64,000 bases of DNA from a virus (Duplodnaviria > Heunggongvirae > Uroviricota > Caudoviricetes), in the IMG/VR virus record IMGVR_UViG_3300044678_001935, positions 35,982-99,981 of that record, one strand, 5' to 3'. Shown piece after piece: positions 4,468-59,343 of this stretch (position 1 is the stretch's first letter; the number at the start of each line of letters is the position of its first letter). Below the pieces are notes generated by a model that saw only the letters and a list, made by a program, of their open reading frames with translations, did not search any database and was not told the DNA's origin. The position numbers and the translations under genes are program-made.

Positions 4468-4485
4468 TAACAACACAAGAAAATT

Positions 4486-34460: not shown

Positions 34461-34801
34461 ATAATGAAGGATTGAAAATATTACAGGCGTCTAATACCAA
34501 CACACCAACAGAAATCTTAGAACGTCTGGCTAATGATGGGGATTATTATGTTCGTTCTCGGGTTGCATCTAATCACAACACATCACCAGAAACCTTAGAA
34601 CGTCTGGCTAATGATGATTTTGTGGATGTTCTTTATTGGGTTGCAGAAAATCCCAACACTCCGTCAGAAATCTTAGAACGTTTGGCTAATGATGGTTCTT
34701 GGTTTGTTCGTTGTGGGGTTGCAAATAATCCCAATACACCTCAATACATTATAACATATCTTAAAATCAAGAAGTTTCTGAATTATTATGAGCAATTATA
34801 A
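34457..34801 (+). CDS. LRV/HEAT-like repeat protein
   Basis: ATGA overlap with the helicase stop. Repeats TEILERLANDGDYYVRSRVASNHNT.., C-terminus NPNTPQYIITYLKIKKFLNYYEQL. Confidence 0.55.
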   Translation: MNNEGLKILQASNTNTPTEILERLANDGDYYVRSRVASNHNTSPETLERLANDDFVDVLYWVAENPNTPSEILERLANDGSWFVRCGVANNPNTPQYIITYLKIKKFLNYYEQL

Positions 34802-35336
34802 TCCCAACATATCACCAGAAACATTAGCTAGTCTGGCTAATAATGATTATGGGGTTGTTCGTTTTGGGGTTGCAACAAATCCTAACACACCACCAGAAGC
34901 ATTAGAACTTCTGGCGAATGATGATCATATTGATGTTCGTCGTGGGGTTGCAGTGAATCCCAACACACCACCAGAAACATTAGAACTTCTGGCTAATGAT
35001 GAGAATGTTGGTGTTCGTGTGAGGGTTGCAGGAAATCTCAACACACTACCAGAAGCATTAGAACGTCTTGCTAATGATGGCGATTATTATGTTCGTTATT
35101 GGGTTGCATCAATTACCAACACACCACCAAAAATATTAGTTATTATGGCTAACGATAAGCATTCTCATGTTCGTAGCTGTGTTGCATCTAATACCAATAC
35201 ACCACCAGAAGCCTTAGAACGTCTGGCTAATGATAATAATTGGCTTGTTCGTTGGCAGGTTGCATATAATCCCAACACTCCCCAATACATTCTAACTTAT
35301 CTTAAAATCAAGGAGTTTCTGAATTATTATGAGTAA
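34788..35336 (+). CDS. LRV/HEAT-like repeat protein
   Basis: 182 aa with six repeats, starting MSNYNPN at the conserved junction. Confidence 0.55.
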   Translation: MSNYNPNISPETLASLANNDYGVVRFGVATNPNTPPEALELLANDDHIDVRRGVAVNPNTPPETLELLANDENVGVRVRVAGNLNTLPEALERLANDGDYYVRYWVASITNTPPKILVIMANDKHSHVRSCVASNTNTPPEALERLANDNNWLVRWQVAYNPNTPQYILTYLKIKEFLNYYE

Positions 35337-39470: not shown

Positions 39471-40007
39471 TTGGCTATGTATGAAGATTATTCTAAAAAA
39501 CAATTAGCTCTTCTGGCTAATGATAAACATTATTATGTTCGTTGTGGTGTTGCAAATAATCCCAACACACAACCAGAAACATTAGATCGTTTAGCGAACG
39601 ATGAGCATCTGCATGTTCGTAGATATGTTGCACGAAATCCAAACACACCACCAGAAGCCTTAGATCGTCTGGCTAATGATGAGGATTCTTGGGTTCGTCT
39701 TGGGGTTGCAAGACATCCCAACACACCACCAGAAGTTTTAGAATGTTTGGCTAATGATAAGGATTATTCTGTTCGTTGTTGGGTTGCGAGAAATCCCAAC
39801 ACAACACCAGAAACCTTAGATCGTCTGGCTAATGATGAGCATTATTATGTTCGTACGCCGGTTGCATTTAATCCCAACACACCACCAAAAAGCTTAGAAC
39901 GTCTGGCTAATGATGAGGATTGGTATGTTCGTTTTGGAGTTACAATAAATCCCAGCACACCTCAATACATTAAAACCTATCTTAAAATTTTAAAATTATT
40001 CAAATGA
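39471..40007 (+). CDS. LRV/HEAT-like repeat protein
   Basis: 178 aa with six 26-aa repeats. C-terminus NPSTPQYIKTYLKILKLFK. Confidence 0.55.
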   Translation: MAMYEDYSKKQLALLANDKHYYVRCGVANNPNTQPETLDRLANDEHLHVRRYVARNPNTPPEALDRLANDEDSWVRLGVARHPNTPPEVLECLANDKDYSVRCWVARNPNTTPETLDRLANDEHYYVRTPVAFNPNTPPKSLERLANDEDWYVRFGVTINPSTPQYIKTYLKILKLFK

Positions 40008-43895: not shown

Positions 43896-44295
43896 AAATA
43901 AATTTTGGGACCTTGAATCTAATCTAAATGAGATTGAATCCAATTATTTGGATCTTGAAGAGCAGTTAGCACATTTTGTTACAGATTCGCTTCTACTTAT
44001 TGAAAACTTAGATCTTGAATCTTTGGCAATACCAATATTCGCTCAGAGTCTTATTATTCGTAATTACCGAGATTACAAATATCAAGATTTATTAAAAAAA
44101 TTACTGGTATCTAAAAATTTCACACCAGGCCTAATATACCGCACAAGAGAAATTTTTACAGAAAAAGAGTTTGAACCTTTTTTACAATACTTACTACAAA
44201 ATCCAAATTTAGACCAGTATGCAAGAGAATACTACACCAACCTAAAAAAATCTTATGACCGAAGACTTACTAGGGAACAAACTAAAAAAGCTTGA
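43876..44295 (+). CDS. hypothetical protein
   Basis: 139-aa ORF. Confidence 0.35.
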   Translation: METHEIENKFWDLESNLNEIESNYLDLEEQLAHFVTDSLLLIENLDLESLAIPIFAQSLIIRNYRDYKYQDLLKKLLVSKNFTPGLIYRTREIFTEKEFEPFLQYLLQNPNLDQYAREYYTNLKKSYDRRLTREQTKKA

Positions 44296-45025
44296 GCAAC
44301 TGGAGGCTGGGCGTTATGCCGATCCTTTTCTTCCACTCATGGCCAGAATTGATGGTAAGTGCTTCAGTAATTTCACTAGAAGTCTAAAACGTCCTTATGA
44401 CGAGAGATTTATTCGGCTTATGATAGCAACGACAAAATATCTTGTTGAAGAAAGTGAGGCTATTTTAGGTTATTGCCAATCTGATGAAATTACTCTTTAT
44501 TGGTACTTAGATAAAGAAAACTTTTCCAATAGAGAATTCTGGTTTCGTGGTAAGTTTCAGAAATTAACTTCTGTCTTAGCCTCAACTGCTAGCTCTTATT
44601 TTTGTGGTAATCTCGCACATTATTTACCAGAAAAGACTGGTAACTATCCAACCTTTGATACAAGAGTTTGGAGTGTTCCCGATTTGGAATGCGTTTATGA
44701 GAATTTTCTATGGCGGTTTAAGGATGCGAGAAAAAATTCTGTATCCATGTATGCAAGACATTTCTTTTCACCAAACCAGCTTTTTAAAAAGTCCTGTGAA
44801 GAAATGAAAGAAATGTTAGCGGTTATTCGTAGGCCGTGGGAAGAATTACCTAAATTCTTTACCGATGGGACGTATATTAAAAGACAAAAATTCTTATTGT
44901 CTCCTTATGATCCTAGATGGAATGACGTTCCCTCTCAATACCGGCCAACAAAACCTGTTGAGCGTACATTGGTTTCCGTTTGGGAACCAGAGACAACGGT
45001 ATCACTTGATTGGTTCACTTATTAA
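44255..45025 (+). CDS. Thg1-like protein (tRNA-His guanylyltransferase family 3'-5' nucleotidyltransferase)
   Basis: MARIDGKCFSNF..KRPYDERFIRLM aligns with the Thg1 region VRLDGRNFHRF..KPNDSRALQLM. GYCQSDEITLYW aligns with AYGQSDEYSFVF, SVLASTASSYF with HVASQFASSY, and the C-terminal FDTRVWSVPD...ENFLWRFKDARKNSVSMYARHFF with FDGRVVVYPS..LSWRQADCHINNLYNTVFW. Confidence 0.75.
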   Translation: MTEDLLGNKLKKLEQLEAGRYADPFLPLMARIDGKCFSNFTRSLKRPYDERFIRLMIATTKYLVEESEAILGYCQSDEITLYWYLDKENFSNREFWFRGKFQKLTSVLASTASSYFCGNLAHYLPEKTGNYPTFDTRVWSVPDLECVYENFLWRFKDARKNSVSMYARHFFSPNQLFKKSCEEMKEMLAVIRRPWEELPKFFTDGTYIKRQKFLLSPYDPRWNDVPSQYRPTKPVERTLVSVWEPETTVSLDWFTY

Positions 45026-45426: not shown

Positions 45427-45609
45427 ATGCACACCATAGAACTTTTTACTTTTAAAGACGCTATACATCTTTTTAACATAGAAATGCAGATTGTTCCCAT
45501 TGCTGGAGATTATATTAAGTATAATTACATCTTATACAAAGTTATTGAAAGAGGTTTTGAAGTTTTTCCGGCTACAACTATTCGTCTTTACGTAGAAGAA
45601 ACCAAATGA
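45427..45609 (+). CDS. small hypothetical protein
   Basis: In-frame ATG within track ORF 45391..45609, downstream of repeat copy B. Confidence 0.3.
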   Translation: MHTIELFTFKDAIHLFNIEMQIVPIAGDYIKYNYILYKVIERGFEVFPATTIRLYVEETK

Positions 45610-46223
45610 ATTACACCGAAGAACAAGTTAAAGAAATCGTCAGAAATGTCATTTCTGAGATGCAATCTGTAAATGTTAAGGATCTTACACTTTACCAAAA
45701 AAGGGGTGTTGCAAGAAATCCCAATACAGCACCAGAAGTCTTAGACCGTCTGGCTAATGATAAGGATTCTTATGTTCGTTGGCAGGTTGCAGAAAATCCC
45801 AACACACCACCAGAGACCTTAGAACGTCTGGCTAATGATGACGATTATTGTGTTCGTTGGAGTGTTGCATTTAATCCCAACACACCACCAGAAACATTAG
45901 CTCGTCTAGCTAATGATGTGGATTATTGTGTTCGTACGCCGGTTGCATTTAATCCCAACACACCACCAGAAGTTTTAGAACGTCTGGCTAATGATAACGA
46001 TTCTGTGGTTCGTTATTATGTTGCAAGAAATCCCAACACATTAACAGAAACTTTAGAACGTTTGGCTAATGATAAGAGTTCTTCTGTTCGTGAATGTGTT
46101 GTACAAAATCCTAACTACAAACGGAAATCCAACAATAAGATCACTATTGAGCTTACAGAAGAACAGTTGTCTCAATTACGAAAATGTGCAGACATGTTCT
46201 CTGGTCTTTTAGGATCTGTATAA
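45606..46223 (+). CDS. LRV/HEAT-like repeat protein
   Basis: 205 aa with six 26-aa repeats, a unique N-terminal 30 aa and a unique C-terminal 35 aa (no NYYE tail). Confidence 0.55.
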   Translation: MNYTEEQVKEIVRNVISEMQSVNVKDLTLYQKRGVARNPNTAPEVLDRLANDKDSYVRWQVAENPNTPPETLERLANDDDYCVRWSVAFNPNTPPETLARLANDVDYCVRTPVAFNPNTPPEVLERLANDNDSVVRYYVARNPNTLTETLERLANDKSSSVRECVVQNPNYKRKSNNKITIELTEEQLSQLRKCADMFSGLLGSV

Positions 46224-46250
46224 CCTTACTACCATCGTATAAAAATTATT

Positions 46251-46505
46251 ATGGAAAAACTAAAATTCGTTGAAACCATTCTTGATCGGCTACAAGAATA
46301 TTCTATATCTCATCCACAACATGATACAGATGATGTGCTTAGCAAAGCACGAAAAGAACTTGAAAAACTTAATAAAAATTATGTTTTGATTGAAAACACT
46401 GAACATATTAAACTTTTGGACAATCAACGCACTCTTTATGCTCTTCATCGTGGTGGTGTTGATAATTGGGAATGGTATGACGAGTCTTTGAGCAGTTTGG
46501 ACTGA
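46251..46505 (+). CDS. hypothetical protein
   Basis: 84-aa ORF. Confidence 0.35.
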   Translation: MEKLKFVETILDRLQEYSISHPQHDTDDVLSKARKELEKLNKNYVLIENTEHIKLLDNQRTLYALHRGGVDNWEWYDESLSSLD

Positions 46506-46676
46506 CACTTTCAGAACCGTCCACAACCGCTTGACAATCCAGCCAATCCATGGTAGATTGAACAAGTTCAAAGATGAGGCAGCAATTCCTTTCTTCTGCA
46601 AATAGAAACAAAACTCATCTTGTATTAAGTTGATTCCGCATCAACAACAGCAAAAACATCAACTTGGAGATTAATT

Positions 46677-48140
46677 ATGACTTTTATGCAAGCTCTTTCT
46701 TCTGAAATGAACGTAACCACCACCGCTAATGGTGCCAAGGCTTACGAATCAACCGAAAATGAATGTCTTGATCTTTTCGGTTCAATTGGTGCCTGTCGCA
46801 ATAATATGTCTTTGGCTGAACGGTTGTTCTTTAATGCTTATAACCAACACCCAGAAACTGCCGCTAGAATTCTCTTCTACTCCCGCGATATTCGTGGAGC
46901 TAGTCAAGGTGAGCGAGCCGTATTTCGGGCTCTTATGCCGAAGTTCGCACAAAAGAATCCGACTGTTGCAAAAAAACTTGTTTCTTTGATTCCTTATTAT
47001 GGCCGATGGGATGATCTTCTATGTCTAGAAGGAACTCCTGTTTGGACAGAGGCTCTAGAAACTATTAAAGTTCAACTTAATGCAGATCTTAATAACAATA
47101 AGGTTTCTCTGGCAGCAAAATGGATGCCTAGTATCAATGCTTCAAGCAAAGAAAGCAAGCGTCTTGGTCGGATGATTGCGAATCATATGGGTTGGTCTGA
47201 ACGACAGTATCGTAAGAATCTTTCTACTCTTCGGGCGAAAATTAACATTGTTGAAACTCCGATGTGTGCCAAAGAGTGGGGACTTATCAATTATGAGAAT
47301 CTTCCTTCTCGTGCGGCGATGATGTACCGCAAAGCCTTTAAAAAGCACGATGAGACCCGATATAATAACTATCTCTCTAGTGTAGAGAAAGGTGAAGCGA
47401 AGATCAATGCTGGGACTCTGTTTCCTTATGATATTGTGAGCAAGTACCTCTACAAAGGTGCTCATAATGATAAAACTCTTGAGCTTCAATGGGATGCTCT
47501 TCCTAATTATATGGAAGGACTAGAGTTTAATGGTCTTGTTGTTGCAGACGTTTCAGGATCAATGACTTGCGCTGCTGGTATGCCATTGGCCGTTTCTATC
47601 TCACTTGCGATGTATATTGCCGAAAGAAATCCTTCAAGCGTTTGGAAAAATAAGTTCATCACTTTTTCTCAAAATCCAAAACTTCAATCTATTCTTGGTA
47701 ATAATATTGAAGAGAAAATTAGGTATCTCCAACGTGCTGAATGGGGAGTTAATACTGATCTAATGGCAGTATTCCGTACTGTTCTTGATGCTGCAACCAA
47801 TAATAATGTTGCACAATCAGATATGCCCCAGAAGCTAATTATCGTTTCCGATATGCAATTTGATAAGGCTTGTGCCTCAAATAAGCGAACTAATTTTGAG
47901 CAGATTCAGAAACTTTATCGTAAGGCTGGTTATGAAATGCCAGAACTCGTATTCTGGAATGTAAATGCTGGTGCAAATGTTCCAATTCAGGCCGATGATA
48001 ATGGAACCTGTCTTGTTTCGGGATGTAGTCCTGCTATTCTAAAGAGTGTTCTTAGTGGTAAAATCGTTTCTCCTATTGATGTTATGATGGAAAGTCTTTA
48101 TGTGGAACGATACGCTCCTATTGGTGAAGCGTTTGCATAA
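46677..48140 (+). CDS. von Willebrand factor A (vWA) domain protein (DUF2828-like architecture)
   Basis: MIDAS-type motif VVADVSGSM at the start of a C-terminal alpha/beta domain, after a long helical N-terminal region. Confidence 0.5.
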   Translation: MTFMQALSSEMNVTTTANGAKAYESTENECLDLFGSIGACRNNMSLAERLFFNAYNQHPETAARILFYSRDIRGASQGERAVFRALMPKFAQKNPTVAKKLVSLIPYYGRWDDLLCLEGTPVWTEALETIKVQLNADLNNNKVSLAAKWMPSINASSKESKRLGRMIANHMGWSERQYRKNLSTLRAKINIVETPMCAKEWGLINYENLPSRAAMMYRKAFKKHDETRYNNYLSSVEKGEAKINAGTLFPYDIVSKYLYKGAHNDKTLELQWDALPNYMEGLEFNGLVVADVSGSMTCAAGMPLAVSISLAMYIAERNPSSVWKNKFITFSQNPKLQSILGNNIEEKIRYLQRAEWGVNTDLMAVFRTVLDAATNNNVAQSDMPQKLIIVSDMQFDKACASNKRTNFEQIQKLYRKAGYEMPELVFWNVNAGANVPIQADDNGTCLVSGCSPAILKSVLSGKIVSPIDVMMESLYVERYAPIGEAFA

Positions 48141-48207
48141 TTAAATTTCTTAAGATGGTTCAGCAATTCTCATATGTTTTGGGTACATAAAAGACCATCT
48201 TGTTTAA

Positions 48208-48322
48208 AGAGCGAGTAGCTCAGGGGTAGAGCAACGTAATAACAAATCTCGTTTGAGATTTTAACAGCAATCAAAACCGCATGTTAAGCCGTAGGCCCCA
48301 GGTTCAAATCCTGGCTCGCTCA
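48208..48322 (+). tRNA. tRNA-like gene with a roughly 42-nt insertion between the D and T arms (isotype unresolved)
   Basis: Perfect 7-bp acceptor GAGCGAG/CTCGCTC, D arm GCTC-AGGGGTA-GAGC and T arm CCAGG-TTCAAAT-CCTGG. The central region is 65 nt instead of about 23 and contains the hairpin AAATCTC-GTTT-GAGATTT (48243-48260). Confidence 0.4.
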
Positions 48323-48433
48323 TCAGATGATTCAGCAATTATCTCTTCGCTAGGAAAACAAAATCATCTAGTTAAACAATTTTATCAATTCTCAAAAAAT
48401 GTTCAATTTCGTTATTAATACTAAATAACCAAC

Positions 48434-48507
48434 AGCGGGCGAGTGTAACGGTAGTCACGTCGGGCTCATAACCCGGAGGAATATGGGTTCAATTCCCAGG
48501 TCCGCCA
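48434..48507 (+). tRNA. tRNA-Met (CAT), initiator-like
   Basis: Anticodon arm TCGGG-CTCATAA-CCCGG is the same as E. coli tRNA-fMet through its three G-C pairs. There is an A1·C72 mismatch at the acceptor end, T loop TTCAATT and acceptor 3' GTCCGCC. Confidence 0.55.
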
Positions 48508-48572
48508 TCAGATGATTCAGCAATTTCAAAACTTCTTATTGGTTAGAAAAACAAAAATCATCTAGTCTTATT

Positions 48573-48693
48573 ACGAGAGTAGCCCAATTGGTTGAGGTGA
48601 GCGTAAGAAACAAAAATGATCTAGACAGATCATTCAGCAATAATACACTTTCTAAGGAACGCTTTGATGTCAGTTCAAATCTGACCTCTCGTA
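48573..48693 (+). tRNA. tRNA-like gene with a roughly 49-nt insertion in the anticodon-loop region (isotype unresolved)
   Basis: Perfect acceptor ACGAGAG/CTCTCGT and T arm GTCAG-TTCAAAT-CTGAC. A candidate anticodon stem GAGCG/CGCTT encloses 56 nt that include the hairpin AATGATCT-AGAC-AGATCATT (48614-48633). Confidence 0.35.
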
Positions 48694-48809
48694 TTTGGTA
48701 GTCGCTAGACACATAGCCTAGAAAGACGCCATATTTTCATTATAAATACAACCAACAGACTTTAACACTACAAAACGATCACTTAGTCTGTGTGATCTGA
48801 AAGAAACAA

Positions 48810-49514
48810 ATGATGTACTCAAACAACTTTGCTGCGGCAATTAAGGTAAACGGTAAAATTCTCCGTGAGTTCGGTGATACTGTTTATCTTCCATTCGGCT
48901 CTGAATATGAAATCAGACTGAAGAACTTACATTCTCAAAGAGCCAAAGTCAATATTGATATTGACGGTTCTACTGTTACAGGGAATGGTCTTATTATCCG
49001 ACCCCAACAGACTGTAGATCTAGAAAGATTCATTCGTGATAATCTAAACGAAGGTAATAAATTCAAGTTTATTGAGCGAACAGATAAGATTGAAAATCAT
49101 CGCGGAATTAAACTTGAAGATGGATTGATTACGATTCGTTTTGAGTTTGAAATTACTCTTAATAATTTTGCTATTTCAACTCCATTAACTTATAGATCTT
49201 ATGGTGGAGGTCTTTATAACTCTTCTAATGTGGTTTCTAATAATATTGTAAGCGTTCCCGTAAATGATACAGGAATCACTGTAGAAGGATCCAAAAGCGA
49301 TCAATCGTTTGGTGCGACAAGTTGGTTTGGATCTATTGGTGGGACTCATGTTTTGAACATTAAACTTTTAGGTGAAACTGAAGACAATAAAAAAATTAGA
49401 GAACCAGTTACAGTTAAAACTAAATTAGAATGTAAAACTTGTGGTACTATTAACAGTGTAACATCCAAGTTCTGTTCTGAATGTGGAACATCTTTACACA
49501 TCGTAGCCGCCTGA
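48810..49514 (+). CDS. hypothetical protein with a C-terminal zinc ribbon
   Basis: C-terminus CKTCGTINSVTSKFCSECGT (a CxxC-x9-CxxC motif). Confidence 0.45.
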   Translation: MMYSNNFAAAIKVNGKILREFGDTVYLPFGSEYEIRLKNLHSQRAKVNIDIDGSTVTGNGLIIRPQQTVDLERFIRDNLNEGNKFKFIERTDKIENHRGIKLEDGLITIRFEFEITLNNFAISTPLTYRSYGGGLYNSSNVVSNNIVSVPVNDTGITVEGSKSDQSFGATSWFGSIGGTHVLNIKLLGETEDNKKIREPVTVKTKLECKTCGTINSVTSKFCSECGTSLHIVAA

Positions 49515-50794: not shown

Positions 50795-51312
50795 CTGAAC
50801 AAGAGCAAAAACTATTAAACAAGTTTCTTTCCTCTATTGAAGAAGACGAAAAGTTCTTCAAAGAGATTATGAACCGAACAGATGAAGACGCAAGACTTCT
50901 TCAATGGATTGTCAATAATAATATCAATCCTTACGGTGTTTTTCCTTATTATATTGCTGGCAGTCTTTCCGAATTACAATCCTTTGTTGCCATCTACATT
51001 AAGATGACGTATCAAAGAAAGCACTGTGAAATTAATTACGTCAACGTTGAAAGAACAAGTAGCTCACATGATCATGTTGATAACCTAGGACCGAGAGTAG
51101 TTTTTGTTGGTAAATGGGAAGATGATTTTCATGCGCTAGTTAAAAAAGAATTAAATCTACCCGACGATGAGCTACCATGGGAATCATACACTTATGACTT
51201 TGACATCTTAGAAAACGTAGACGCCTTTATTGAAACATACAATAGGGTTGAAGATTATCACAAGAATCGTTATGAAGAAAACAGTAAGCTTGCGGATAGG
51301 TGGTTATCATGA
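50791..51312 (+). CDS. hypothetical protein
   Basis: 173-aa ORF whose stop TGA overlaps the lysS ATG (ATGA). Confidence 0.4.
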
Positions 51313-52787
51313 ATGAAGAAACATCACAATTTTTATCAGCCAGGTTGGATAAGATTTCAGAACTACAGAAAATAGGGCAAGTTGCATATGCTAATTCTTT
51401 TCACCCTACAATTAAAGCATTAGAATTACATAAGAATTATTTTAATCTGGAAAATGGTTCTGAATGTGATGATAATGTTGTTATAGCTGGTCGTATTATC
51501 GCAAGAAGAGTATTCGGTAAGTTGTCATTTTTTACTCTTTCCGATGACAGTGGAACAATTCAGCTTTATATTGAGAACGCCATCGTTGGTTCCGATATTG
51601 TTTCCTTAACCGATGTCGGCGACTGGATCGGCGCCACCGGCACCCTGCGGCGCACCGACCGGGGCGAGCTTTCGGTCAAGGTGCGCGACTGGACGATGCT
51701 CAGCAAGTCGCTTCAGCCCCTGCCCGACAAGTGGCATGGCCTGGCGGACGTGGAGAAGCGCTACCGGCAGCGCTATCTCGATCTGATCGTCTCCCCCCAC
51801 ACCCGCGAAACTTTCCGGCGACGTGCCATTTTGATTAGAACTATTCGCAATTGGCTTGACTCGCGGGAATTTTTGGAGATTGAAACTCCTATTCTACAAA
51901 CCGAAGTTGGCGGAGCCGAGGCCAAACCTTTCTCAACATATCATAACACTCTAGATCTATCATTAACTCTAAGAATTGCGACCGAGTTGCACCTTAAGAG
52001 GATGATTGTTGGTGGTTTTGAAAGAGTTTATGAGTTGGGTCGTATATTTCGTAATGAAGGTCTAAGCACCCGCCATAATCCAGAGTTTACAACCGTTGAG
52101 ATTTATCAGGCATATGCAGATTATAATGATATGATGATTTTAACAGAAAATCTCATATCTACTTGCGCAGAGACAGTTTGTGGTTCTACTGTAATAGTTT
52201 ATCAAGATGAAAAAATTGATCTAACTCCTCCTTGGAATAAATGTACAATGCACGAATTGGTTTTTGAGCATACTGGTCTTGATTTTCATCAATTTTCGTC
52301 AAGAACCGATGCCGCTAATGCTATGGAAACTATTGGATTGGTTGTTCCTGATAGTGCCGATTCCGTTGGTCGGTTATTAAACGAAGCCTTTGAACAAAGA
52401 GTTGAAAAACAGCTCATTCAACCGACTTTTGTTTTAGATTATCCTGTTGAAATTTCTCCACTGGCCCGTTCTCATAGAGAAAAACCGGAATTGGTTGAAA
52501 GATTTGAATTATTCATCTTTGGTCGTGAAATTGCCAATGCCTTTAGCGAACTCACCGATCCTTTAGAACAGAGAAAAAGATTAGAAGAACAACAAACCCG
52601 CCGCAATAATGGCGATCAAGAGGCTCACACTATTGATGAAGACTTTTTAAACGCACTTGAAATTGGAATGCCGCCAACCGGAGGACTAGGTATTGGTATA
52701 GACAGATTGACAATGTTACTTACGGATAGTCCGTCTATTCGTGATGTTATCGCTTTTCCTTTAATGCGCCCAGAGGACAAAACATGA
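51309..52787 (+). CDS. lysS: lysyl-tRNA synthetase (class II)
   Basis: N-terminal OB anticodon-binding region ([23 protein letters not shown]), motif 2 [23 protein letters not shown] and motif 3 [18 protein letters not shown] at 51309; the track lists a GTG at 51300. Confidence 0.85.
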
Positions 52788-55033: not shown

Positions 55034-55105
55034 CTGGAAATAAGTCAGTGGTAGACGGTCTAGTTTGGGGCTAGAAAGACGTTGGTTCGAGTCCAACTTT
55101 TCAGA
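55034..55105 (+). tRNA. tRNA-Pro (TGG)
   Basis: Acceptor CTGGAAA/TTTTCAG, D arm AGTC-AGTGGTA-GACG, anticodon arm TCTAG-TTTGGGG-CTAGA (U33, anticodon TGG, G37) and T arm GTTGG-TTCGAGT-CCAAC. Confidence 0.55.
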
Positions 55106-55175: not shown

Positions 55176-56234
55176 ATGAAAAAATACGATGCGGTGGTTT
55201 TCATCGGCAGGTTTCAACCTTTCCATAACGCTCATTTTGATATTATCAAAAAAGCTTATGAGCTAACTGATTATGTAATTCTTATCGCGGGTTCTCAGTA
55301 TCAACCACCTAGCTATAAGAATCCATTTCAGGCTTTAACTTTTGACGGTTATTTTGATTCAATTGGAAAAACCATTGATAATTATCTTAGAGTTAACTTT
55401 GAGGATTATTATGACGAAGACCGTAACTATGAGTTCTCGTTTTGTTTTCAACGAGATATTTACGGTGATAATCTCTGGTGCAAAAGTGTACAGGAAAAAG
55501 TATCAGAATTATTCTTAGGTCAAGAAGCTGAAATAGCCATTATTGGTTGTAATAAGGATGAAAGTTCTTATTACTTAAATATGTTCCCTCAGTGGGATCT
55601 TATTGAGGTTCCTCTGGATCAAAACCTTAGTGCTACACAGATCAGAGAACTTTATTTCGTTGAAGAACCAAATATGAGTTTTCTTCAAGGTGTTGTATCG
55701 TCTGAGGTTTTTAATTATCTTGACGAACACAAAAATACCGAATGGCACAATAATATCGTAAACGAACGAAATTTTATTGAAAAATACAAAGCCCAATATG
55801 CTTCTTTCCCATATCCACCAACATTCGTTACTGTAGATTCTGTAGTATTTCAATCCGGTCATGTTCTCGTTGTTCGGAGAAATGCTTATCCTGGTAAAGG
55901 TCTTATTGCTCTTCCTGGTGGATTCTTAGACGCTAATAGTGATGCCTCTTTGGAAGATGCTATGATTAGAGAACTGAGAGAGGAAACAGGGCTTAAAGTG
56001 CCAACTCCGGTTCTCAAGGGATCTATTAAAGATGTTAAAGTTTTTGATTCTCTTTATAGAAGCTCTCGTGGACGGACTATTACTCATGCTCATAACATTG
56101 TATTGTCTGATGGAGAACTACCTAGAGTCAAAGGTGATTCTGATGCTGATAAGGCTTTCTGGTTACCATTCAGCCAACTTAAATCAGAGCAATTTTTTGA
56201 AGACCATTATCAAATTATCAATTATTTTCTATGA
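55176..56234 (+). CDS. natV: bifunctional NMN adenylyltransferase / Nudix hydrolase (NadM-Nudix, NatV-like)
   Basis: N-terminal GRFQPFHNAH (the H/TxGH nucleotidyltransferase motif) and a C-terminal Nudix box GGFLDANSDASLEDAMIRELREETGL. Confidence 0.8.
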   Translation: MKKYDAVVFIGRFQPFHNAHFDIIKKAYELTDYVILIAGSQYQPPSYKNPFQALTFDGYFDSIGKTIDNYLRVNFEDYYDEDRNYEFSFCFQRDIYGDNLWCKSVQEKVSELFLGQEAEIAIIGCNKDESSYYLNMFPQWDLIEVPLDQNLSATQIRELYFVEEPNMSFLQGVVSSEVFNYLDEHKNTEWHNNIVNERNFIEKYKAQYASFPYPPTFVTVDSVVFQSGHVLVVRRNAYPGKGLIALPGGFLDANSDASLEDAMIRELREETGLKVPTPVLKGSIKDVKVFDSLYRSSRGRTITHAHNIVLSDGELPRVKGDSDADKAFWLPFSQLKSEQFFEDHYQIINYFL

Positions 56235-56431
56235 TTATGAATCAAGTGCAACTGAGTAAAATGTCAAGAGAAGAAAAACTTAAGGCATTGGCTTTAATTG
56301 ATAAAAACATTGAGACAACAAAACTTAAATTAAGCCAATTACATCATGAAGCCTATAAGTTGCAATATGAATTAGGTTATTACGCTAAAAAAGAAATCCT
56401 TTATGGAATTAAATATGATGTTCAAAATTAA
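56231..56431 (+). CDS. small hypothetical protein
   Basis: 66-aa ORF with ATGA overlap to natV. Confidence 0.3.
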   Translation: MIMNQVQLSKMSREEKLKALALIDKNIETTKLKLSQLHHEAYKLQYELGYYAKKEILYGIKYDVQN

Positions 56432-56951
56432 TAAAAATCGAAACTTCCTAGAAGACTATAAGAAATATTATTTCTTTTATGATACTCCATTGTCAAATTG
56501 GGCAGGTTATTCTTTTGTTGATACAACAACTGGAGTTTCTTACAATTGCTCAGAACAGTTTATGATGCACAAGAAGGCCCTACTTTTTTCTGATTATAAT
56601 ACTGCCGGCAAGATCATGAATAAAGAATACCCAGGAGATCAAAAAGCCTTGGGTAGAATGGTGGCAGGCTTTGATGTTAGCATTTGGAATGAATATGCAA
56701 GAGATCTTGTGTATGAAGGATGTTATTATAAGTTTACCCAAAATAAGGAAGCTTATGAATATCTTATGGGGACAGAAGGTTATCTTCTAGTAGAGGCATC
56801 ACCAACAGATACTATTTGGGGTATTGGACTTGGAGGTTATGATGCAGATAATCAAGATCCTAAAAATTGGAGAGGAACTAACTGGTTGGGTGAAGTTCTT
56901 ACACAACTACGAGAAGATTTGAAAGATAACCCAGAGTTAGTTTTATTCTAG
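56403..56951 (+). CDS. NADAR (DUF1768, YbiA-like) domain protein
   Basis: ..NCSEQFMMHKKALLF..KALGRMV..WNEYARDLVYEGCYYKFTQNKEAYEYLMGTEGYLLVEASPTDTIWGIGLGG matches the NADAR pattern (EH....K......LGR...W......M......KF.QN..L...LL.T...L.E.SP.D..WG.G). Confidence 0.65.
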   Translation: MELNMMFKINKNRNFLEDYKKYYFFYDTPLSNWAGYSFVDTTTGVSYNCSEQFMMHKKALLFSDYNTAGKIMNKEYPGDQKALGRMVAGFDVSIWNEYARDLVYEGCYYKFTQNKEAYEYLMGTEGYLLVEASPTDTIWGIGLGGYDADNQDPKNWRGTNWLGEVLTQLREDLKDNPELVLF

Positions 56952-57027
56952 TCAGATGTAAAGACTTTAAAACATAATTCAACGATAGACGTTGAATTTT
57001 ATCCACTATCATTTTAAGGAGTTTAAA

Positions 57028-59343
57028 ATGGACAACATTATTCTTTCTGCTGATTCTTACAAATACTCTCAGTTCAATCAATATCCTCCACAAACAGAGG
57101 GTGTTTATTCTTACATTGAGAGTCGCGGTGGTGGAGAAGAAGTTCTCTTTATGGGTCTTCAGATCTATCTTAAGGAATATCTATCTCGTCCCATTCGCAT
57201 GGAAGATATTGACGAAGCAGAGGAACTTATTCTCGCTCACGGAGAACCTTTTTATCGTGGCGGGTGGGAATACATCGTTAAGAAGCATGGTGGTTATCTA
57301 CCCGTAAGAGTAAAAGCCGTTCCAGAAGGAATGGTGATTCCAACGAAAAATGTTTTGGTTACGATTGAGAATACAGATCCAAACTGCTATTGGCTGACAA
57401 GTTTTCTAGAGACAAGTCTTCTTCGGCATGTTTGGTTTCCAACAACGGTTGCGACGAATTCTTATAACATCAAGAAGCTTATTTTGAGTTACTTGATTCG
57501 TAATGGAGATCCCAATACGATTGATTATAAGCTACATGACTTTGCATTTCGAGGTGTGTCTTCTTCTGAATCTGCCGGAATCGGTGGTATTGCACACCTT
57601 GTTAATTTCAAGGGAACTGATACAGTTGCCGCTCTTCGTTATGGTAGAAAATATTATAACGAAAAAATGGCAGGCTACTCGGTCCCAGCTTCAGAACATG
57701 GTGGAATCACGAGTTGGGGTAAAGAAAACGAAGTAGCGGCATATAGAAATATGCTTAATCATTATGCTAAGCCTGGTGCTATCGTCGCTTGTGTAAGTGA
57801 CAGTTATGACATTTATAACGCTTGCGATAAGCTCTGGGGTGAGGAGTTAAAGGATGAAGTTATTGCTTCTGGTGCTACTCTGACGGTCAGGCCGGATTGT
57901 TATGATGATCAAACTAAGATTTTAACTCCTAGTGGGTGGAAATTATTTTGTGAATTATCGGAAAACGATCTGGTTGCCCAGGTTAATCCCGATAAAACTT
58001 ATGAATTTGTCAAACCTCTTGAAATTATTAATGAATATTATGAAGGAGAAATGTATCAAATTCGGGATTTTCACGGAAAAATTGATCTCTTAGTCACTCC
58101 TAATCATAGATTAGTGGTTGTAGATAGAGCTGGTGAACTTATAGTAAAAGAAGCCAAAGATTATAACCCAAAAAATTTGAATTACCGAAAACTTCGTTCG
58201 GCTAAGGCCAAAACTTTTGGGAAAAATTTAACCTGGCACGAAAGACTATTAATCGCATTACAGGCTGATGGTACTATTAGAAAAACGACCTCCAATAAGA
58301 CGAGTATTGAATTCAATTTTCAAAAAGAGCGAAAGCATAATAGATTATTAAATATTCTTAATAATTTAAATTATGAGTATAGTGTCTTTTATAGTGAGTC
58401 TAGGGAGGGCCAATCAATTATAACCGTGTCAATACCATTGGGTGAAATTGTTTCTAAAACATTTGATTGGGTTGATATTTCAAACTTGGATAGTCAATGG
58501 TGTGAGCAATTTATAGATGAATTAAAACATTGGGATTCTTCTATTAGAAATAGTGGAAGATTTAAATATGATACTACAGTTAAATTTAACATAGACGTAG
58601 TAGAATATATTGCCATTTCTTCAGGGAAAGGGATTTTAATTTCCGTCGCCGAAGATAATAGACAATCTTATTATTCTGATGTTTATACTGCACATATATT
58701 GGATAATCCTTATTCTGGTGGTCAGACCATAACCAAAACAAAAGTTAATTATAAAGGAAGTGTACATTGTGTTAAAGTTCCGAGTGGTATGGTTTTAGTT
58801 AAAAGACACCGGGGAGTTTCTGTTTCTGGAAATTCTGGAGAACCTGTAGAAGTGAATCTTAAGTGTGCTCAAATTCTTGAAAGTCATTATGGATCTACCG
58901 TAAACTCTAAAGGATTTAAGGTACTCAATAACGTCAAGCTCATTCAGGGTGATGGTGTTAATTATGAAACTGTAGATCGGGTTCTTCATGTACTTGAATC
59001 TAACGGATATAGTAGTGATAACATTGGTTTCGGAATGGGTGGCGCCCTGCTCCAGGCTGTTACTCGTGATGATTACAAATTTGCCATGAAGTGTAGTGCG
59101 GTTAATGTGGCTGGAAATTGGAGGGATGTTTACAAGGATCCTATTACAGATCCAGGTAAAACATCTAAGAAAGGTCGTCTGAATCTGATTCATACCGATA
59201 ATGGTTACGAAACGGTTCCTGAACGCCCATGGAATAAAGATGTTCTTGAGGTTGTTTATGAGAATGGAGAACTTCTAAAGGATTATACTTTGGAAGAAAT
59301 CCGAGTGAACGCAAATCGGTGTATTCATAATTACTTCGCATAA
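57028..59343 (+). CDS. nadV: nicotinamide phosphoribosyltransferase NadV, interrupted by an intein
   Basis: N-terminus MDNIILSADSYKYSQFNQYPP is NAMPT-like and has a TAAGGAG RBS. The extein aligns with NAMPT on both sides of a 312-aa insertion between RPD and SGEP (human RPDSGNP), and NSKGFKVL..LIQGDGV matches NSKGYKLL..VIQGDGV. Confidence 0.8.
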   Translation: MDNIILSADSYKYSQFNQYPPQTEGVYSYIESRGGGEEVLFMGLQIYLKEYLSRPIRMEDIDEAEELILAHGEPFYRGGWEYIVKKHGGYLPVRVKAVPEGMVIPTKNVLVTIENTDPNCYWLTSFLETSLLRHVWFPTTVATNSYNIKKLILSYLIRNGDPNTIDYKLHDFAFRGVSSSESAGIGGIAHLVNFKGTDTVAALRYGRKYYNEKMAGYSVPASEHGGITSWGKENEVAAYRNMLNHYAKPGAIVACVSDSYDIYNACDKLWGEELKDEVIASGATLTVRPDCYDDQTKILTPSGWKLFCELSENDLVAQVNPDKTYEFVKPLEIINEYYEGEMYQIRDFHGKIDLLVTPNHRLVVVDRAGELIVKEAKDYNPKNLNYRKLRSAKAKTFGKNLTWHERLLIALQADGTIRKTTSNKTSIEFNFQKERKHNRLLNILNNLNYEYSVFYSESREGQSIITVSIPLGEIVSKTFDWVDISNLDSQWCEQFIDELKHWDSSIRNSGRFKYDTTVKFNIDVVEYIAISSGKGILISVAEDNRQSYYSDVYTAHILDNPYSGGQTITKTKVNYKGSVHCVKVPSGMVLVKRHRGVSVSGNSGEPVEVNLKCAQILESHYGSTVNSKGFKVLNNVKLIQGDGVNYETVDRVLHVLESNGYSSDNIGFGMGGALLQAVTRDDYKFAMKCSAVNVAGNWRDVYKDPITDPGKTSKKGRLNLIHTDNGYETVPERPWNKDVLEVVYENGELLKDYTLEEIRVNANRCIHNYFA
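57898..58833 (+). mobile_element. intein (312 aa) with a LAGLIDADG-like motif, in-frame within nadV
   Basis: Begins with Cys (CYDDQTKILTPSGW) and has block B LVTPNHRL. The LAGLIDADG-like motif is LLIALQADGTIRK. It ends ..VSVSGN followed by an extein Ser, and it sits in the conserved PRPP-binding RPDSG site. Confidence 0.65.

What the first reader, a model, noticed from the sequence alone, without database searches (positions are those of the whole stretch)
48322..48633. Repeat element CAGATGATTCAGCAAT...AAAACAAAATCATCTAG after each tRNA, also inside the tRNA-like genes, with a compensatory G/C swap
Directly after the first two tRNA genes the 18-mer ATCAGATGATTCAGCAAT recurs (48322 and 48507). 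In each case an AAAACAAAA(A)TCATCTAG follows 30-40 nt later, so AGATGATT pairs with AATCATCT. Inside the third tRNA-like gene the two halves are fused as AATGATCT-AGAC-AGATCATT-CAGCAAT, with G and C exchanged on both arms so that pairing is preserved. The first tRNA-like insert also carries GAGATTTTAACAGCAATCAAAAC. Compensatory change indicates a selected RNA stem. The unit looks like a small mobile or processing element associated with tRNA 3' ends.
Basis: seen in the sequence. Interest (0 to 1): 0.65.

Follow-up and report, generated by a model that had tools for sequence, protein, structure and literature searches.

The report
Y-RNA-like modules beside phage Ro60-like gene
The repeat is a conserved folded RNA module, present seven times around a phage gene for a Ro60-like RNA-binding ring protein and twice built into the anticodon arm of tRNA genes, so it is most likely that protein's partner RNA and not simply a tRNA 3'-end signal.

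Summary
The unit is a 7-10 bp helix (P1) that opens into a fork. One fork strand carries a near-invariant CAGCAA(Y) and the other is A-rich.

The window holds seven copies, all on the + strand within 46569-48693. Five are "open" hairpin RNAs of about 45-60 nt: two lie in the 5' leader of ORF 46677-48140 and three alternate with tRNAs. Two are circularly permuted "closed" copies inside tRNA-type genes.

The ORF (Pfam DUF2828+DUF7788) models as a HEAT-ring plus vWA protein. Its best structural matches are Ro60/Rsr, including a phage Ro60 that has two Y-like RNA genes upstream.

Covariance models found 167 modules next to homologues of this gene in phages and bacteria. All 167 lie on the gene's strand, and every P1 pair covaries. 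No Rfam family matches.

Removing the 42-nt insert from 48209-48322 gives a perfect tRNA-Asn(GUU). About 20 other phage tRNAs carry the same module at position 29/30, and 32 of 37 lie beside the Ro60-like gene.

Best reading: a new Y-RNA-like partner family of a divergent Ro60, in places fused to tRNAs. Binding is inferred. Whether the inserts are spliced out is unresolved.

The parts
46531..46559 (+). Sigma-70-like promoter TTGACA-17 nt-TAGATT with TG extension, about 10 nt upstream of the first module. It is the likely start of the transcript that carries the modules, the gene and the tRNAs.
   Evidence: Best promoter-like site in 46200-49000 (10 of 12 matches); sequence. No terminator-like site was found in 46200-49000. 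Function is inferred.
46569..46623 (+). Open module 0: P1 AAGATGAG (46571-46578) / CTCATCTT (46614-46621); fork strands G-CAGCAAT and AAACAAAA.
   Evidence: R1 60.2 bits; R2, built without window sequences, 23.5 bits, E 0.0035; MFE keeps P1.
46625..46667 (+). Open module 0', a variant with TCCGCAT: P1 TAAGTTGAT / ATCAACTTG. It ends against the GGAG ribosome-binding site, 10 nt before the ATG.
   Evidence: R1 24 bits, E 0.09; regex hit; MFE z -2.4. Orthologous second leader modules occupy the same position in L002-L007. This is the weakest copy.
46677..48140 (+). Gene for a 487-aa Ro60-like protein (HEAT-repeat ring plus vWA domain with a DxSxS MIDAS motif); the proposed protein partner of the modules.
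48150..48203 (+). Open module a: P1 AAGATGGTT (48152-48160) / GACCATCTT (48193-48201); CAGCAAT at 48161. It ends 6-7 nt before the tRNA-Asn gene.
   Evidence: R1 53.9 bits; R2 18.7 bits; MFE z -2.7.
48209..48322 (+). tRNA-Asn(GUU) gene interrupted between nt 29 and 30 of the anticodon stem. Exon 1 is 48209-48236, the 42-nt insert is 48237-48278, and exon 2 is 48279-48322. The insert is closed module b: A-rich UAAUAACAA, P1 48244-48250 / 48255-48261 with loop GUUU, and CAGCAAT at 48265-48271. No CCA is encoded.
   Evidence: Rfam tRNA 50.7 bits with a 53-nt insert. With the insert removed, ARAGORN calls a 72-nt tRNA-Asn gtt. Insert P1 covaries at 7 of 7 pairs among 18 homologues chosen by exon sequence only.
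48322..48372 (+). Open module c: P1 AGATGATT (48325-48332) / AATCATCT (48362-48369). It starts 2 nt after the tRNA-Asn discriminator base.
   Evidence: R1 52.2 bits; R2 16.1 bits. The MFE prefers an alternative hairpin, so P1 here rests on comparative evidence.
48434..48507 (+). Uninterrupted tRNA-Met(CAU) gene lying between modules c and c'.
   Evidence: ARAGORN; Rfam 38.7 bits.
48507..48566 (+). Open module c': same P1 as module c (48510-48517 / 48556-48563) with a longer loop that holds a small hairpin. It ends 7-9 nt before the next tRNA-like gene.
   Evidence: R1 60.4 bits; R2 26 bits, E 8.5e-4; MFE z -2.8.
48573..48693 (+). tRNA-like gene ('class B'). It has acceptor, D and T arms and a 5-bp anticodon stem AGCGU/ACGCU. 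The anticodon loop is replaced by closed module d: A-rich AAGAAACAAAA, P1 AATGATCT 48615-48622 / AGATCATT 48627-48634 with loop AGAC, and CAGCAAT at 48635-48641. There is no reliable anticodon.
   Evidence: Rfam tRNA 37.3 bits with a 54-nt insert. P1 is the helix of module c with one G-C pair flipped. Homologues in L004, L006 and L104 lack any anticodon loop.

Best explanation
The repeat is one structured RNA module. A helix P1 has a semi-conserved outer end, (U/A)AAG...CUUG. It opens into a fork: the strand leaving one P1 arm reads CAGCAA(Y), and the strand entering the other arm is A-rich (AAAAC-like).

I propose it is the cognate RNA ligand, a Y-RNA analogue, of the Ro60-like ring protein encoded at 46677-48140.

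Proposed sequence of events in the window:
1. One transcript starts at the promoter at 46531 (inferred).
2. It carries two modules in the gene's leader, then the gene, then modules alternating with tRNA genes.
3. RNase P cuts at each tRNA 5' end and RNase Z cuts after each CCA-less discriminator base. This would release the open modules as roughly 55-65-nt small RNAs (inferred).
4. The leader copy that abuts the ribosome-binding site could also let the protein repress its own translation (inferred).

In two genes the module is circularly permuted: P1 is capped by a tetraloop and the fork strands run into a tRNA anticodon stem. This tethers a tRNA body to the protein-binding module. It is the same two-part logic as bacterial YrlA (a Ro-binding stem plus a tRNA-like domain) with the opposite ends closed.

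Shown here:
- the RNA structure and its conservation;
- strict same-strand linkage to the gene over wide phylogeny;
- the Ro60-like fold of the protein;
- the tRNA character of the interrupted genes.

Inferred: physical binding, the processing route, and the biological role. The role is probably tRNA surveillance or repair during infection, given the neighbouring Thg1-like gene, the tRNAs and the aminoacyl-tRNA synthetases.
For: Structure:
- P1 covaries in three separately assembled sets. Window clade: 5 of 9 pairs change on both sides, 94% of cells paired against 28-44% when the partner is slid.
- Thirty modules from other phages and bacteria: 8 of 8 pairs covary. The 110 hits in bacterial loci: 8 of 8 pairs, 94% paired.
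- Closed copies chosen by tRNA exon sequence alone: 7 of 7 pairs, 98% paired.
- CAGCAA is 106-110 of 110 at each position.

Linkage to the gene:
- Model R2 gives 110 hits in 80 bacterial loci and 57 hits in 52 viral loci. All 167 are on the strand of the DUF2828 gene and none on the other strand.
- The regex definition gives 158 hits against 2-9 in block shuffles.
- In the 64-kb window both models hit only 46569-48566.
- Interrupted tRNAs found without using the protein lie 98-2744 nt from a homologue on the same strand in 32 of 37 cases.

Protein:
- The MIDAS residues are invariant.

Precedent:
- Thermus phage phiLo Ro60 binds two Y-like RNAs encoded just upstream of its gene (PMC12135203).
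- Bacterial Y RNAs lie next to Ro60 genes and carry tRNA-like domains (PMC4201824).

The same tRNA-module-tRNA alternation occurs in the cultured Citrobacter phage Moogle.
Against: - No binding data exist.
- The protein has no sequence-level similarity to TROVE or Ro60: phmmer and a family profile against PDB find nothing, and Pfam reports DUF2828, not TROVE.
- Global TM-scores are only 0.31-0.47 and the model's confidence is moderate (pLDDT 79.6).
- The conserved RNA motif CAGCAAY differs from the Ro-binding motifs described for known Y RNAs (GNCGAAN0-1G, GGUCCGA).
- Rfam YrlA scores 17.5 bits against a threshold of 69.
- P1 in the window copies is AU-rich and thermodynamically weak (z -1.3 to -2.8). 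One copy prefers another fold.
- Some of the module sets were picked by a rule that required a helix, so 'percent paired' is partly circular for those sets. It is not circular for A5 or for the strand and position statistics.
- Linkage alone would also fit a purely cis-acting leader or processing signal.
Confidence: 0.68

Rival explanations
1. The closed copies are true tRNA introns. The 42-nt insert at 48237-48278, and its relatives at position 29/30, are cut out and the exons are ligated by an unidentified endonuclease and ligase. This yields working tRNAs. The module is mainly an intron or spacer handle, possibly with the Ro60-like protein as a splicing cofactor. This can coexist with the Y-RNA reading.
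For: - Removing the insert restores a perfect 5-bp stem and 7-nt loop in all 7 class-A genes tested. ARAGORN then calls normal 72-74-nt tRNAs.
- About 20 distinct genes give Asn, Thr, Arg, Pro, Ile, Asp and Leu anticodons. U33 is present in all but two, the Lys-UUU loop and a 6-nt loop.
- Nucleotide 37 follows the normal rule: A after U36 or C36, G after G36.
- Some identity elements fit: C1-G72/A73 with Pro UGG in L002, G73 with Asp, and G73 with 3 of 5 Asn.
- One spliced Arg-UCU is 92% identical over its full length to an intron-less viral tRNA.
- The insertion point 29/30 is kept even where the stem sequence differs (L104).
Against: - No bacterial or phage machinery for protein-dependent tRNA splicing is known (my own knowledge).
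- No RtcB, Rnl or EndA-type gene was found among the 29 ORFs scanned in 33-64 kb. The first 33 kb was not scanned.
- No bulge-helix-bulge motif is evident in the folds.
- Class-B genes have no anticodon at all, so they cannot be pre-tRNAs.
- Nearly identical tRNA bodies carry different anticodons: L004 Thr against L006 Pro, L061 Thr against L087 Ile.
- Some identity elements do not fit: B3 has UCG on a Pro-type acceptor stem, and the window tRNA-Asn has A73.
- A displayed anticodon loop could be kept for enzyme recognition and not for decoding.
Confidence: 0.4
2. The modules are only cis-acting processing or regulatory hairpins. They would be RNase E, RNase III or RNase Z guides that separate tRNAs, or a translational operator in the leader. 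They would have no trans-acting small-RNA role and no stable RNP.
For: - Open copies abut tRNA ends: 2 nt after the discriminator base and 6-9 nt before the next tRNA.
- One leader copy abuts the ribosome-binding site in the window, in L002-L007 and in phage Moogle.
- No terminators separate the units.
Against: - A host RNase signal would not need an invariant CAGCAA conserved from cyanophages to Firmicutes, Chloroflexi and Planctomycetes.
- It would not track one accessory gene this strictly.
- Many loci have 2-5 tandem modules and no tRNAs.
- Larger versions carry extra domains, as Y RNAs do.
- The operator role accounts for one copy per locus, not for arrays.
Confidence: 0.15
3. The module is a small self-cleaving ribozyme that frees tRNA ends. 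The known examples of this kind are the HDV-like theta ribozymes found next to phage tRNAs, and hammerhead, twister, pistol and hatchet ribozymes.
For: - It sits directly after tRNAs.
- It occurs in circularly permuted forms, as several ribozyme classes do.
- Theta ribozymes next to phage tRNAs are a precedent (PMC10879173, listed; abstract only read).
Against: - An Rfam scan of 48050-48850 at E up to 10 found no ribozyme family. Gathering-threshold scans of 40 related loci found none either.
- The conserved core is one helix, six invariant bases and an A-rich strand, with a variable interior. That is too little for any known catalytic fold.
- Copies in mRNA leaders would destroy the message.
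Confidence: 0.03
4. It is a DNA-level mobile element, either a MITE-like repeat or the remnant of a homing insertion, that spreads among tRNA genes and intergenic sites.
For: - Two tRNA genes of one phage carry nearly identical inserts together with identical D-arm and anticodon-stem flanks (L006 4835 and 5096).
- The insertion point is shared across lineages.
Against: - Orientation is strictly strand-specific relative to one gene (167 to 0).
- P1 sequences differ between copies while pairing is kept, which indicates selection on RNA and not recent copying.
- There are no target-site duplications or terminal inverted repeats beyond P1 itself.
- There are no copies elsewhere in the 64 kb.
Confidence: 0.05

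Closest known systems
Ro60/Rsr-Y RNA ribonucleoproteins, especially bacterial YrlA (Rfam RF02553; PMC4201824)
   Same: - A ring-shaped HEAT plus vWA protein with small RNAs encoded beside it on the same strand.
- The RNA has a terminal stem opening into a conserved internal loop.
- At least one RNA per locus carries a tRNA-like domain with T, D and acceptor arms.
- The internal-loop strand before the 3' arm is A-rich in both: YrlA consensus aAaAcUuG, here AAAACAAA.
   Different: - The protein is DUF2828/DUF7788, not Pfam TROVE. Similarity shows only at the fold level.
- The conserved RNA motif is CAGCAAY, not GNCGAAN0-1G.
- The YrlA model scores below threshold (17.5 bits against 69).
- In the tRNA-bearing forms the topology is reversed: the acceptor stem is open and the protein-binding stem is capped.
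- Some copies retain a complete anticodon hairpin.
- Most copies are minimal, 45-60 nt.
Thermus phage phiLo Ro60 with Yrl1/Yrl2 (PDB 9KOP, 9L5Y; PMC12135203)
   Same: - A phage-encoded Ro60-type protein with two Y-like RNA genes immediately upstream, as at 46569-46667.
- 9KOP is the best Foldseek match of the window protein (E 1.2e-7).
   Different: - phiLo Ro60 is a recognisable TROVE protein, and its RNAs carry the CGAA motif.
- No tRNA-embedded copies or tRNA alternation are described for it.
Protein-spliced tRNA introns of archaea and eukaryotes (bulge-helix-bulge; non-canonical positions such as 29/30; circular intron products)
   Same: - A short insert in the anticodon arm whose removal restores a canonical tRNA.
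- Position 29/30 is one of the non-canonical sites seen in archaea (my own knowledge).
- A circularised insert would have the same topology as the open module (inference).
   Different: - No bulge-helix-bulge motif is evident, and no EndA or RtcB gene was found in the part of the window scanned.
- The hosts are bacteria, where such splicing is unknown.
- The insert carries a conserved motif shared with free-standing RNAs.
Group I introns in bacterial and phage tRNA genes (PMC3984707)
   Same: They interrupt the tRNA anticodon region in bacteria, cyanobacteria and phages.
   Different: Group I introns are over 200 nt long and are self-splicing ribozymes with a conserved core. These inserts are 38-55 nt: one hairpin plus single strands.
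HDV-like theta ribozymes next to phage tRNAs (PMC10879173)
   Same: A small structured RNA placed directly beside phage tRNA genes.
   Different: There is no HDV-like nested pseudoknot, no Rfam hit, the linkage is to a protein gene, and many copies have no tRNA nearby.

Membership tests
Ro60/TROVE protein family (for ORF 46677-48140) | HEAT-repeat ring followed by a vWA domain | tested here: met
Ro60/TROVE protein family (for ORF 46677-48140) | Sequence match to the TROVE domain or to solved Ro60 proteins | tested here: not met
   Pfam reports only DUF2828 and DUF7788. phmmer and a 30-sequence profile against all PDB sequences find no Ro60.
Ro60/TROVE protein family (for ORF 46677-48140) | MIDAS motif (DxSxS) in the vWA domain | tested here: met
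   D291, S293 and S295 are invariant, and T360 and D392 are also invariant, in 30 homologues. Assigning them to MIDAS is by position, not by structure.
Y RNA (general definition) | Encoded next to the Ro60 gene, and a terminal stem made by the 5' and 3' ends opening into a large internal loop | tested here: met
   All 167 hits lie on the gene strand, mostly within 1 kb of the gene. P1 covaries at 8 of 8 pairs. The loop is 15-45 nt and often holds a small hairpin.
Y RNA (general definition) | Conserved Ro-binding sequence (GGUCCGA in animals; GNCGAAN0-1G or CGAA in bacteria and phage) | tested here: not met
   The consensus is A-CAGCAA-Y. The motifs for comparison come from PMC4201824 and PMC12135203.
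Y RNA (general definition) | Physically bound by the Ro60 protein | not testable with these tools
   Needs pull-down, EMSA or CLIP.
YrlA (Rfam RF02553) | Score at or above the gathering threshold of the covariance model | tested here: not met
   Best match is 48148-48261: 17.5 bits, E 0.95, threshold 69.
YrlA (Rfam RF02553) | A tRNA-like domain joined through the anticodon-stem position to the protein-binding stem | tested here: met
   48209-48322 and 48573-48693 hit Rfam tRNA, and the module emerges from the anticodon stem. The topology is permuted relative to YrlA: the acceptor stem is open and the binding stem is capped.
tRNA (Rfam RF00005) | Cloverleaf scoring above threshold | tested here: met
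   50.7, 38.7 and 37.3 bits against a threshold of 29.
tRNA (Rfam RF00005) | Continuous 5-bp anticodon stem with a 7-nt loop in the gene | tested here: not met
   This is met only by 48434-48507. 48209-48322 meets it only after the 42-nt insert is removed. 48573-48693 has no reliable loop.
Archaeal/eukaryal-type spliced tRNA intron | Bulge-helix-bulge motif at the exon-intron junctions | tested here: inconclusive
   MFE folds of 24 insert regions and of the full gene show P1 and no 3-4-3 bulge-helix-bulge. No dedicated search for the motif was run.
Archaeal/eukaryal-type spliced tRNA intron | Splicing endonuclease and RNA ligase available | tested here: inconclusive
   None was found among the 29 ORFs of 33-64 kb scanned with Pfam, PHROGs or NCBIfam. 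The first 33 kb, the rest of the phage genome and the host were not examined.
Small self-cleaving ribozymes (hammerhead, twister, pistol, hatchet, HDV-like) | Match to the family's covariance model | tested here: not met
   There is no such hit at E up to 10 in 48050-48850, and none at the gathering threshold in the window or in 40 related loci.
Group I intron | A catalytic core of P3-P9 helices, usually over 200 nt | tested here: not met
   The insert is 42 nt (54 nt in the class-B gene) and there is no Rfam intron hit.

The most novel reading that the evidence does not exclude
The module inside the tRNA genes is a genuine intron of a kind not known in bacteria or their viruses.

It would be excised at position 29/30 by a protein machinery that recognises the CAGCAA fork, perhaps the Ro60-like RNP acting with a host or phage nuclease and ligase. 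That step would mature a set of phage tRNAs (Asn, Thr, Arg, Pro, Ile, Asp and others).

The excised insert, if its ends were joined, would be a circular RNA with exactly the topology of the free-standing modules. tRNA splicing and Y-RNA production would then be two outputs of one reaction.
Probability: 0.3. Interest if true: 0.92.

Novelty: new variant of a known kind. Interest (0 to 1): 0.74.

Why it matters
- It gives a large protein family of unknown function a likely identity and a specific RNA ligand. The family is DUF2828/DUF7788, equal to PHROG 850; the homology search returned more than 6,500 homologues across phages and many bacterial phyla.
- It adds a well-supported structured RNA family that is absent from Rfam.
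- It shows that Ro60-type RNPs in phages are far more common than the TROVE annotation suggests.
- It links these RNPs physically to tRNA genes, next to a Thg1-like tRNA 5'-end repair enzyme and phage-encoded aminoacyl-tRNA synthetases. That points to a phage system for protecting or repairing tRNAs.
- The interrupted tRNA genes are either the first tRNA/Y-RNA chimeras that keep a complete anticodon hairpin, or evidence for an unknown tRNA splicing pathway in the bacterial world.
- Both possibilities can be tested in a cultured phage of enterobacteria (Citrobacter phage Moogle and its relatives), which carries the same gene and the same tRNA-module alternation.

Tried and rejected
- **Ribozyme reading.** Rfam scans at permissive and gathering thresholds found only tRNA and tmRNA, a sub-threshold YrlA match, and one unrelated RAGATH-27 hit in L173.
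- **Terminator or promoter reading.** There are no terminator-like sites, and the only good promoter lies upstream of the first module.
- **Sequence-level link of the protein to Ro60.** No PDB hit with the single sequence or with the family profile. Only fold comparison shows the relation.
- **ARAGORN intron mode.** It places the inserts inconsistently and gives implausible anticodons (Leu-taa, Tyr-ata, Phe-aaa), so I did not use it. The 29/30 junction was derived by hand and then checked.
- **Class-B anticodons.** ARAGORN's 'ata' call is the A-rich fork strand, not a loop.
- **CAGCAAU pairing with the anticodon loop.** It holds for only some genes, at 3-4 bp, and cannot explain conservation in the free-standing copies.
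- **Population-level variation.** Two other metagenome contigs that carry the identical protein are identical across the RNA region, so they add nothing.
- **Literature.** Nine full-text searches found no description of this module, of DUF2828 as a Ro60 relative, or of short tRNA inserts in phages. The 2016 Burroughs and Aravind RNA-repair survey and the 2020 Ro60 review could not be read. Prior description there cannot be excluded.
- **Intron-less scaffold.** A scan for tRNAs with the same D arm and anticodon stem found mostly Arg-UCU tRNAs (114 of 120). This suggests the scaffold's origin but does not settle whether the inserts are spliced.
Full report
**1.

- The 18-mer ATCAGATGATTCAGCAAT starts on the discriminator base of two tRNA-type genes, at 48322 and 48507.
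- Each is followed 33-41 nt later by AAAACAAAA(A)TCATCTAG.
- AGATGATT pairs with AATCATCT.
- Inside 48573-48693 the arms read AATGATCT-AGAC-AGATCATT-CAGCAAT. This is the same helix with one G-C pair flipped.

Rfam's tRNA model hits 48209-48322, 48434-48507 and 48573-48693. The first and third carry inserts of 53 and 54 nt in the anticodon arm. ARAGORN calls only the middle one, as tRNA-Met.

Three further copies were missed: 48150-48203, just before the first tRNA gene, and 46569-46623 plus 46625-46667, upstream of ORF 46677-48140.

**2. Anatomy of the unit**

Each copy is a helix P1 of 7-10 bp that opens at one end into two single strands.
- The strand leaving one arm (S1) reads, after 0-4 linker bases, CAGCAA(Y).
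- The strand entering the other arm (S2) is A-rich (AAAACAAA and similar).

In the five open copies the order is S1-CAGCAAY-loop-A-rich-S2. The loop is 15-30 nt and often holds a small hairpin. In the two closed copies the order is A-rich-S2-tetraloop-S1-CAGCAAY, and the two fork strands continue into a tRNA anticodon stem.

**3. It is a conserved RNA family, not a local repeat**

The nearest cultured phages, Synechococcus phages B3 and B23, have the same arrangement with different helices: TAGGTGGTT/ACCACCTA, and CAGCCAT or CTGCAAT motif variants.

I built model R1 from 19 open copies of the window clade. Five of nine P1 pairs change on both sides, and 94% of cells pair against 28-44% when the partner is slid. 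R1 finds only the five open copies in the 64-kb window.

Model R2 was built from 30 modules of other phages and of bacteria, with no window sequence. All eight pairs covary. R2 still finds four of the window copies and nothing else in the window.

R2 gives 110 hits (E ≤ 0.1) in 80 bacterial loci and 57 hits in 52 viral loci. All 167 are on the strand of the neighbouring gene. In the 110-hit alignment:
- all eight pairs covary, and CAGCAA is 106-110 of 110 at each position;
- the outer helix is (U/A)AAG...CUUG;
- most helix changes are transitions that keep the purine on the same strand.

A regex definition of the module gives 158 hits against 2-9 in block shuffles. CM E-values here are rough. 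Sets chosen by the regex required a helix, so the strand, position and shuffle statistics, together with set A5 below, are the independent evidence.

No Rfam family matches the module.

**4. The constant neighbour is a Ro60-like protein**

ORF 46677-48140 (487 aa) matches Pfam DUF2828 and DUF7788, and PHROG 850 'RNA-binding protein'. It has no sequence-level match to any solved structure, even with a family profile.

An AlphaFold model (pLDDT 79.6, pTM 0.67) is all-helical to about residue 275 and then alpha/beta.
- The five significant Foldseek matches (E ≤ 0.001), each aligned over the full length, are the Thermus phage phiLo TROVE domain, D. radiodurans Rsr, the phiLo Ro60 dimer and two human Ro60 entries (E 1e-7 to 9e-5, TM 0.31-0.47).
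- The DxSxS residues of a MIDAS site are invariant in the family.

I therefore treat the protein as a divergent member of the Ro60 architecture, established at the fold level only.

Homologues occur in T4-like cyanophages, FelixO1-like enterobacterial phages, many uncultured phages and, probably as prophages, in many bacterial phyla.

**5. Why the Y-RNA reading**

Ro60 proteins bind Y RNAs that are encoded beside them. Bacterial YrlA joins a Ro-binding stem to a tRNA-like domain (PMC4201824). Thermus phage phiLo Ro60 binds two Y-like RNAs encoded just upstream of its gene (PMC12135203).

The window shows the same layout:
- a good sigma-70-like promoter at 46531-46559, then two modules, then the gene, with no terminators through 49000;
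- modules downstream, alternating with tRNAs.

Two upstream modules recur in L002-L007. Long versions of 85-200 nt with extra hairpins occur in more distant loci.

The module differs from known Y RNAs in its conserved motif, and it fails the YrlA model (17.5 bits against 69). It is an analogue and a new family, not a member of YrlA. Binding has not been shown.

**6. Relation to tRNAs**

Open copies begin 2 nt after a CCA-less discriminator base and end 6-9 nt before the next tRNA. RNase Z and RNase P cuts would therefore release them as small RNAs; this is inference.

The same tRNA-module-tRNA alternation is present in Citrobacter phage Moogle: tRNA-Glu, module 3143-3208, tRNA-Met, module 3305-3367, tRNA-Asn. 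Many bacterial loci, however, have modules without tRNAs. The tRNA link is therefore secondary to the protein link.

**7. The interrupted tRNA genes**

In 48209-48322, removing 48237-48278 joins ACG to GC-AUGUUAA-GCCGU. The result is a perfect anticodon arm, and ARAGORN calls a 72-nt tRNA-Asn(GUU). Six relatives likewise become Arg, Pro or Thr tRNAs.

An exon-only pattern scan of viral contigs found about 20 further distinct genes with a closed module at the same 29/30 position.
- Their loops read Asn GUU, Thr GGU/UGU, Arg CCU/UCU/UCG, Pro UGG, Ile GAU, Asp GUC, Leu GAG and Lys UUU.
- U33 is present except in the Lys-UUU loop and one aberrant 6-nt loop.
- Nucleotide 37 is A or G according to nucleotide 36, as in working tRNAs.

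These genes were chosen without regard to the insert, yet the insert helix covaries at 7 of 7 pairs. Thirty-two of 37 lie 98-2744 nt from a DUF2828 homologue on the same strand.

A Clostridiales genome (L104) has an Asn gene with a different stem, CGU|insert|GC-CUGUUAA-GCACG, interrupted at the same point.

The scaffold resembles intron-less Arg-UCU tRNAs.

The second type, 48573-48693 with its relatives in L004, L006 and L104, keeps the tRNA body and a 5-bp anticodon stem but has the module in place of the loop. It has no dependable anticodon. It is best described as a tRNA-like Y RNA.

Other fusions exist. L057 has an array of at least five interrupted tRNA-like genes. L104 has an open module whose loop contains an anticodon arm and a T arm.

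**8. What remains open**

The canonical anticodon loops argue that class-A genes make working tRNAs, which would require excision of the insert. Several points argue against this:
- no such pathway is known in bacteria (my own knowledge);
- I found no ligase or endonuclease candidate among the ORFs scanned in 33-64 kb;
- no bulge-helix-bulge motif is evident;
- near-identical bodies carry different anticodons.

I estimate about 0.4 that the inserts are spliced. The alternative is stable tRNA/Y-RNA chimeras that display an anticodon hairpin to tRNA-binding enzymes.

**9. Rivals rejected or down-weighted**

These are a pure processing or operator signal, a self-cleaving ribozyme, and a DNA mobile element. 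The evidence for and against each is given in the structured fields.

**10. Verdict**

The finding is real and is a new variant of a known kind: a Ro60/Y-RNA-type system with a new protein clade, a new RNA family and new topologies, including insertion into tRNA genes. Nine full-text searches found no description of it. Two key reviews could not be read.

Noticed in passing
window 51300-52787 and 60361-61710: The phage encodes full-length aminoacyl-tRNA synthetases. LysRS scores 689 bits against NCBIfam PRK00484 (cut-off 468). CysRS scores 522 bits against TIGR00435 (cut-off 340). Such genes are unusual in phages. They fit a tRNA-centred gene neighbourhood.
   Followed up: partly
window 44255-45025: A Thg1-like gene (tRNA-His guanylyltransferase / 3'-5' polymerase family; Pfam 1e-26, PHROG 4717 1e-63) lies 1.6 kb upstream of the Ro60-like gene. 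tblastn finds Thg1-like genes near the Ro60-like gene in 7 of the loci fetched through the interrupted tRNAs.
   Followed up: partly
window 34788-35336, 39471-40007, 45606-46223, 62739-63155: There are four paralogous small proteins made of leucine-rich-repeat-variant / HEAT repeats (Pfam LRV, E 1e-15 to 1e-39) scattered through the region. Their function is unknown.
   Followed up: no
window 55176-59343: An NAD salvage cluster is present: NadM-type cytidylyltransferase plus Nudix (55176-56234), a NADAR domain protein (56403-56951), and a 783-aa NAMPT/NAPRTase. The NAPRTase match is split into two stretches, which may mean an insertion.
   Followed up: no
window 46251-46505: The small ORF just upstream of the module promoter matches T7 Gp5.9-type RecBCD inhibitors (PHROG 6234, 6e-11; Pfam Phage_T7_Gp5_9 on the identical metagenome contig).
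   Followed up: no
window 55034-55105: This is an ordinary tRNA-Pro(UGG) with no module before or after it. The module is therefore not a general feature of this phage's tRNA genes.
   Followed up: yes
L006 and L007 2528-2779: Related phages carry a permuted cyanobacterial-type tmRNA gene (Rfam cyano_tmRNA, 115-116 bits) about 90 nt upstream of the two leader modules of their Ro60-like gene.
   Followed up: no
L052 (Citrobacter phage Moogle NC_027293.1) 2973-4656: The record's tRNA features appear on the strand opposite to the one where ARAGORN finds the same tRNAs at the same coordinates. Either the deposited strand or its conversion is wrong. The intergenic modules at 3143-3208, 3305-3367 and 3704-3778 are unannotated.
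   Followed up: partly
L173 1749-1831: A RAGATH-27 RNA (Rfam RF03100, 78.2 bits, threshold 76.1) lies about 650 nt upstream of a bacterial DUF2828 gene. It is unrelated in sequence to the CAGCAA module. This was seen in one locus only.
   Followed up: partly
L104 2318-2405 (Clostridiales bacterium CCNA10): This open module has P1 (AAGAGGCG/CGCCUCUU) in the place of a tRNA acceptor stem. Its loop holds an anticodon arm (CUCAUAA, CAU) and a T arm, and CAGCAAA sits where the D arm would be. This suggests the module may derive from the acceptor stem plus the U8-A14 region (UAGCUCA) of a tRNA.
   Followed up: no
L010, L013-L016, downstream of the gene (for example L014 4480-4680): In the 41-45% identity group the module motif (AAAGATGCATT-CTGCAAC) opens a much longer RNA of about 170-200 nt. 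It follows the gene's terminator and is itself followed by a terminator. Its internal structure was not analysed.
   Followed up: no
window 48322-48372: In module c, S1 (AGAUGAUU) can also pair with AAUUAUCU, which overlaps the end of CAGCAAU. The MFE prefers this alternative hairpin. It could be incidental or a switch.
   Followed up: no
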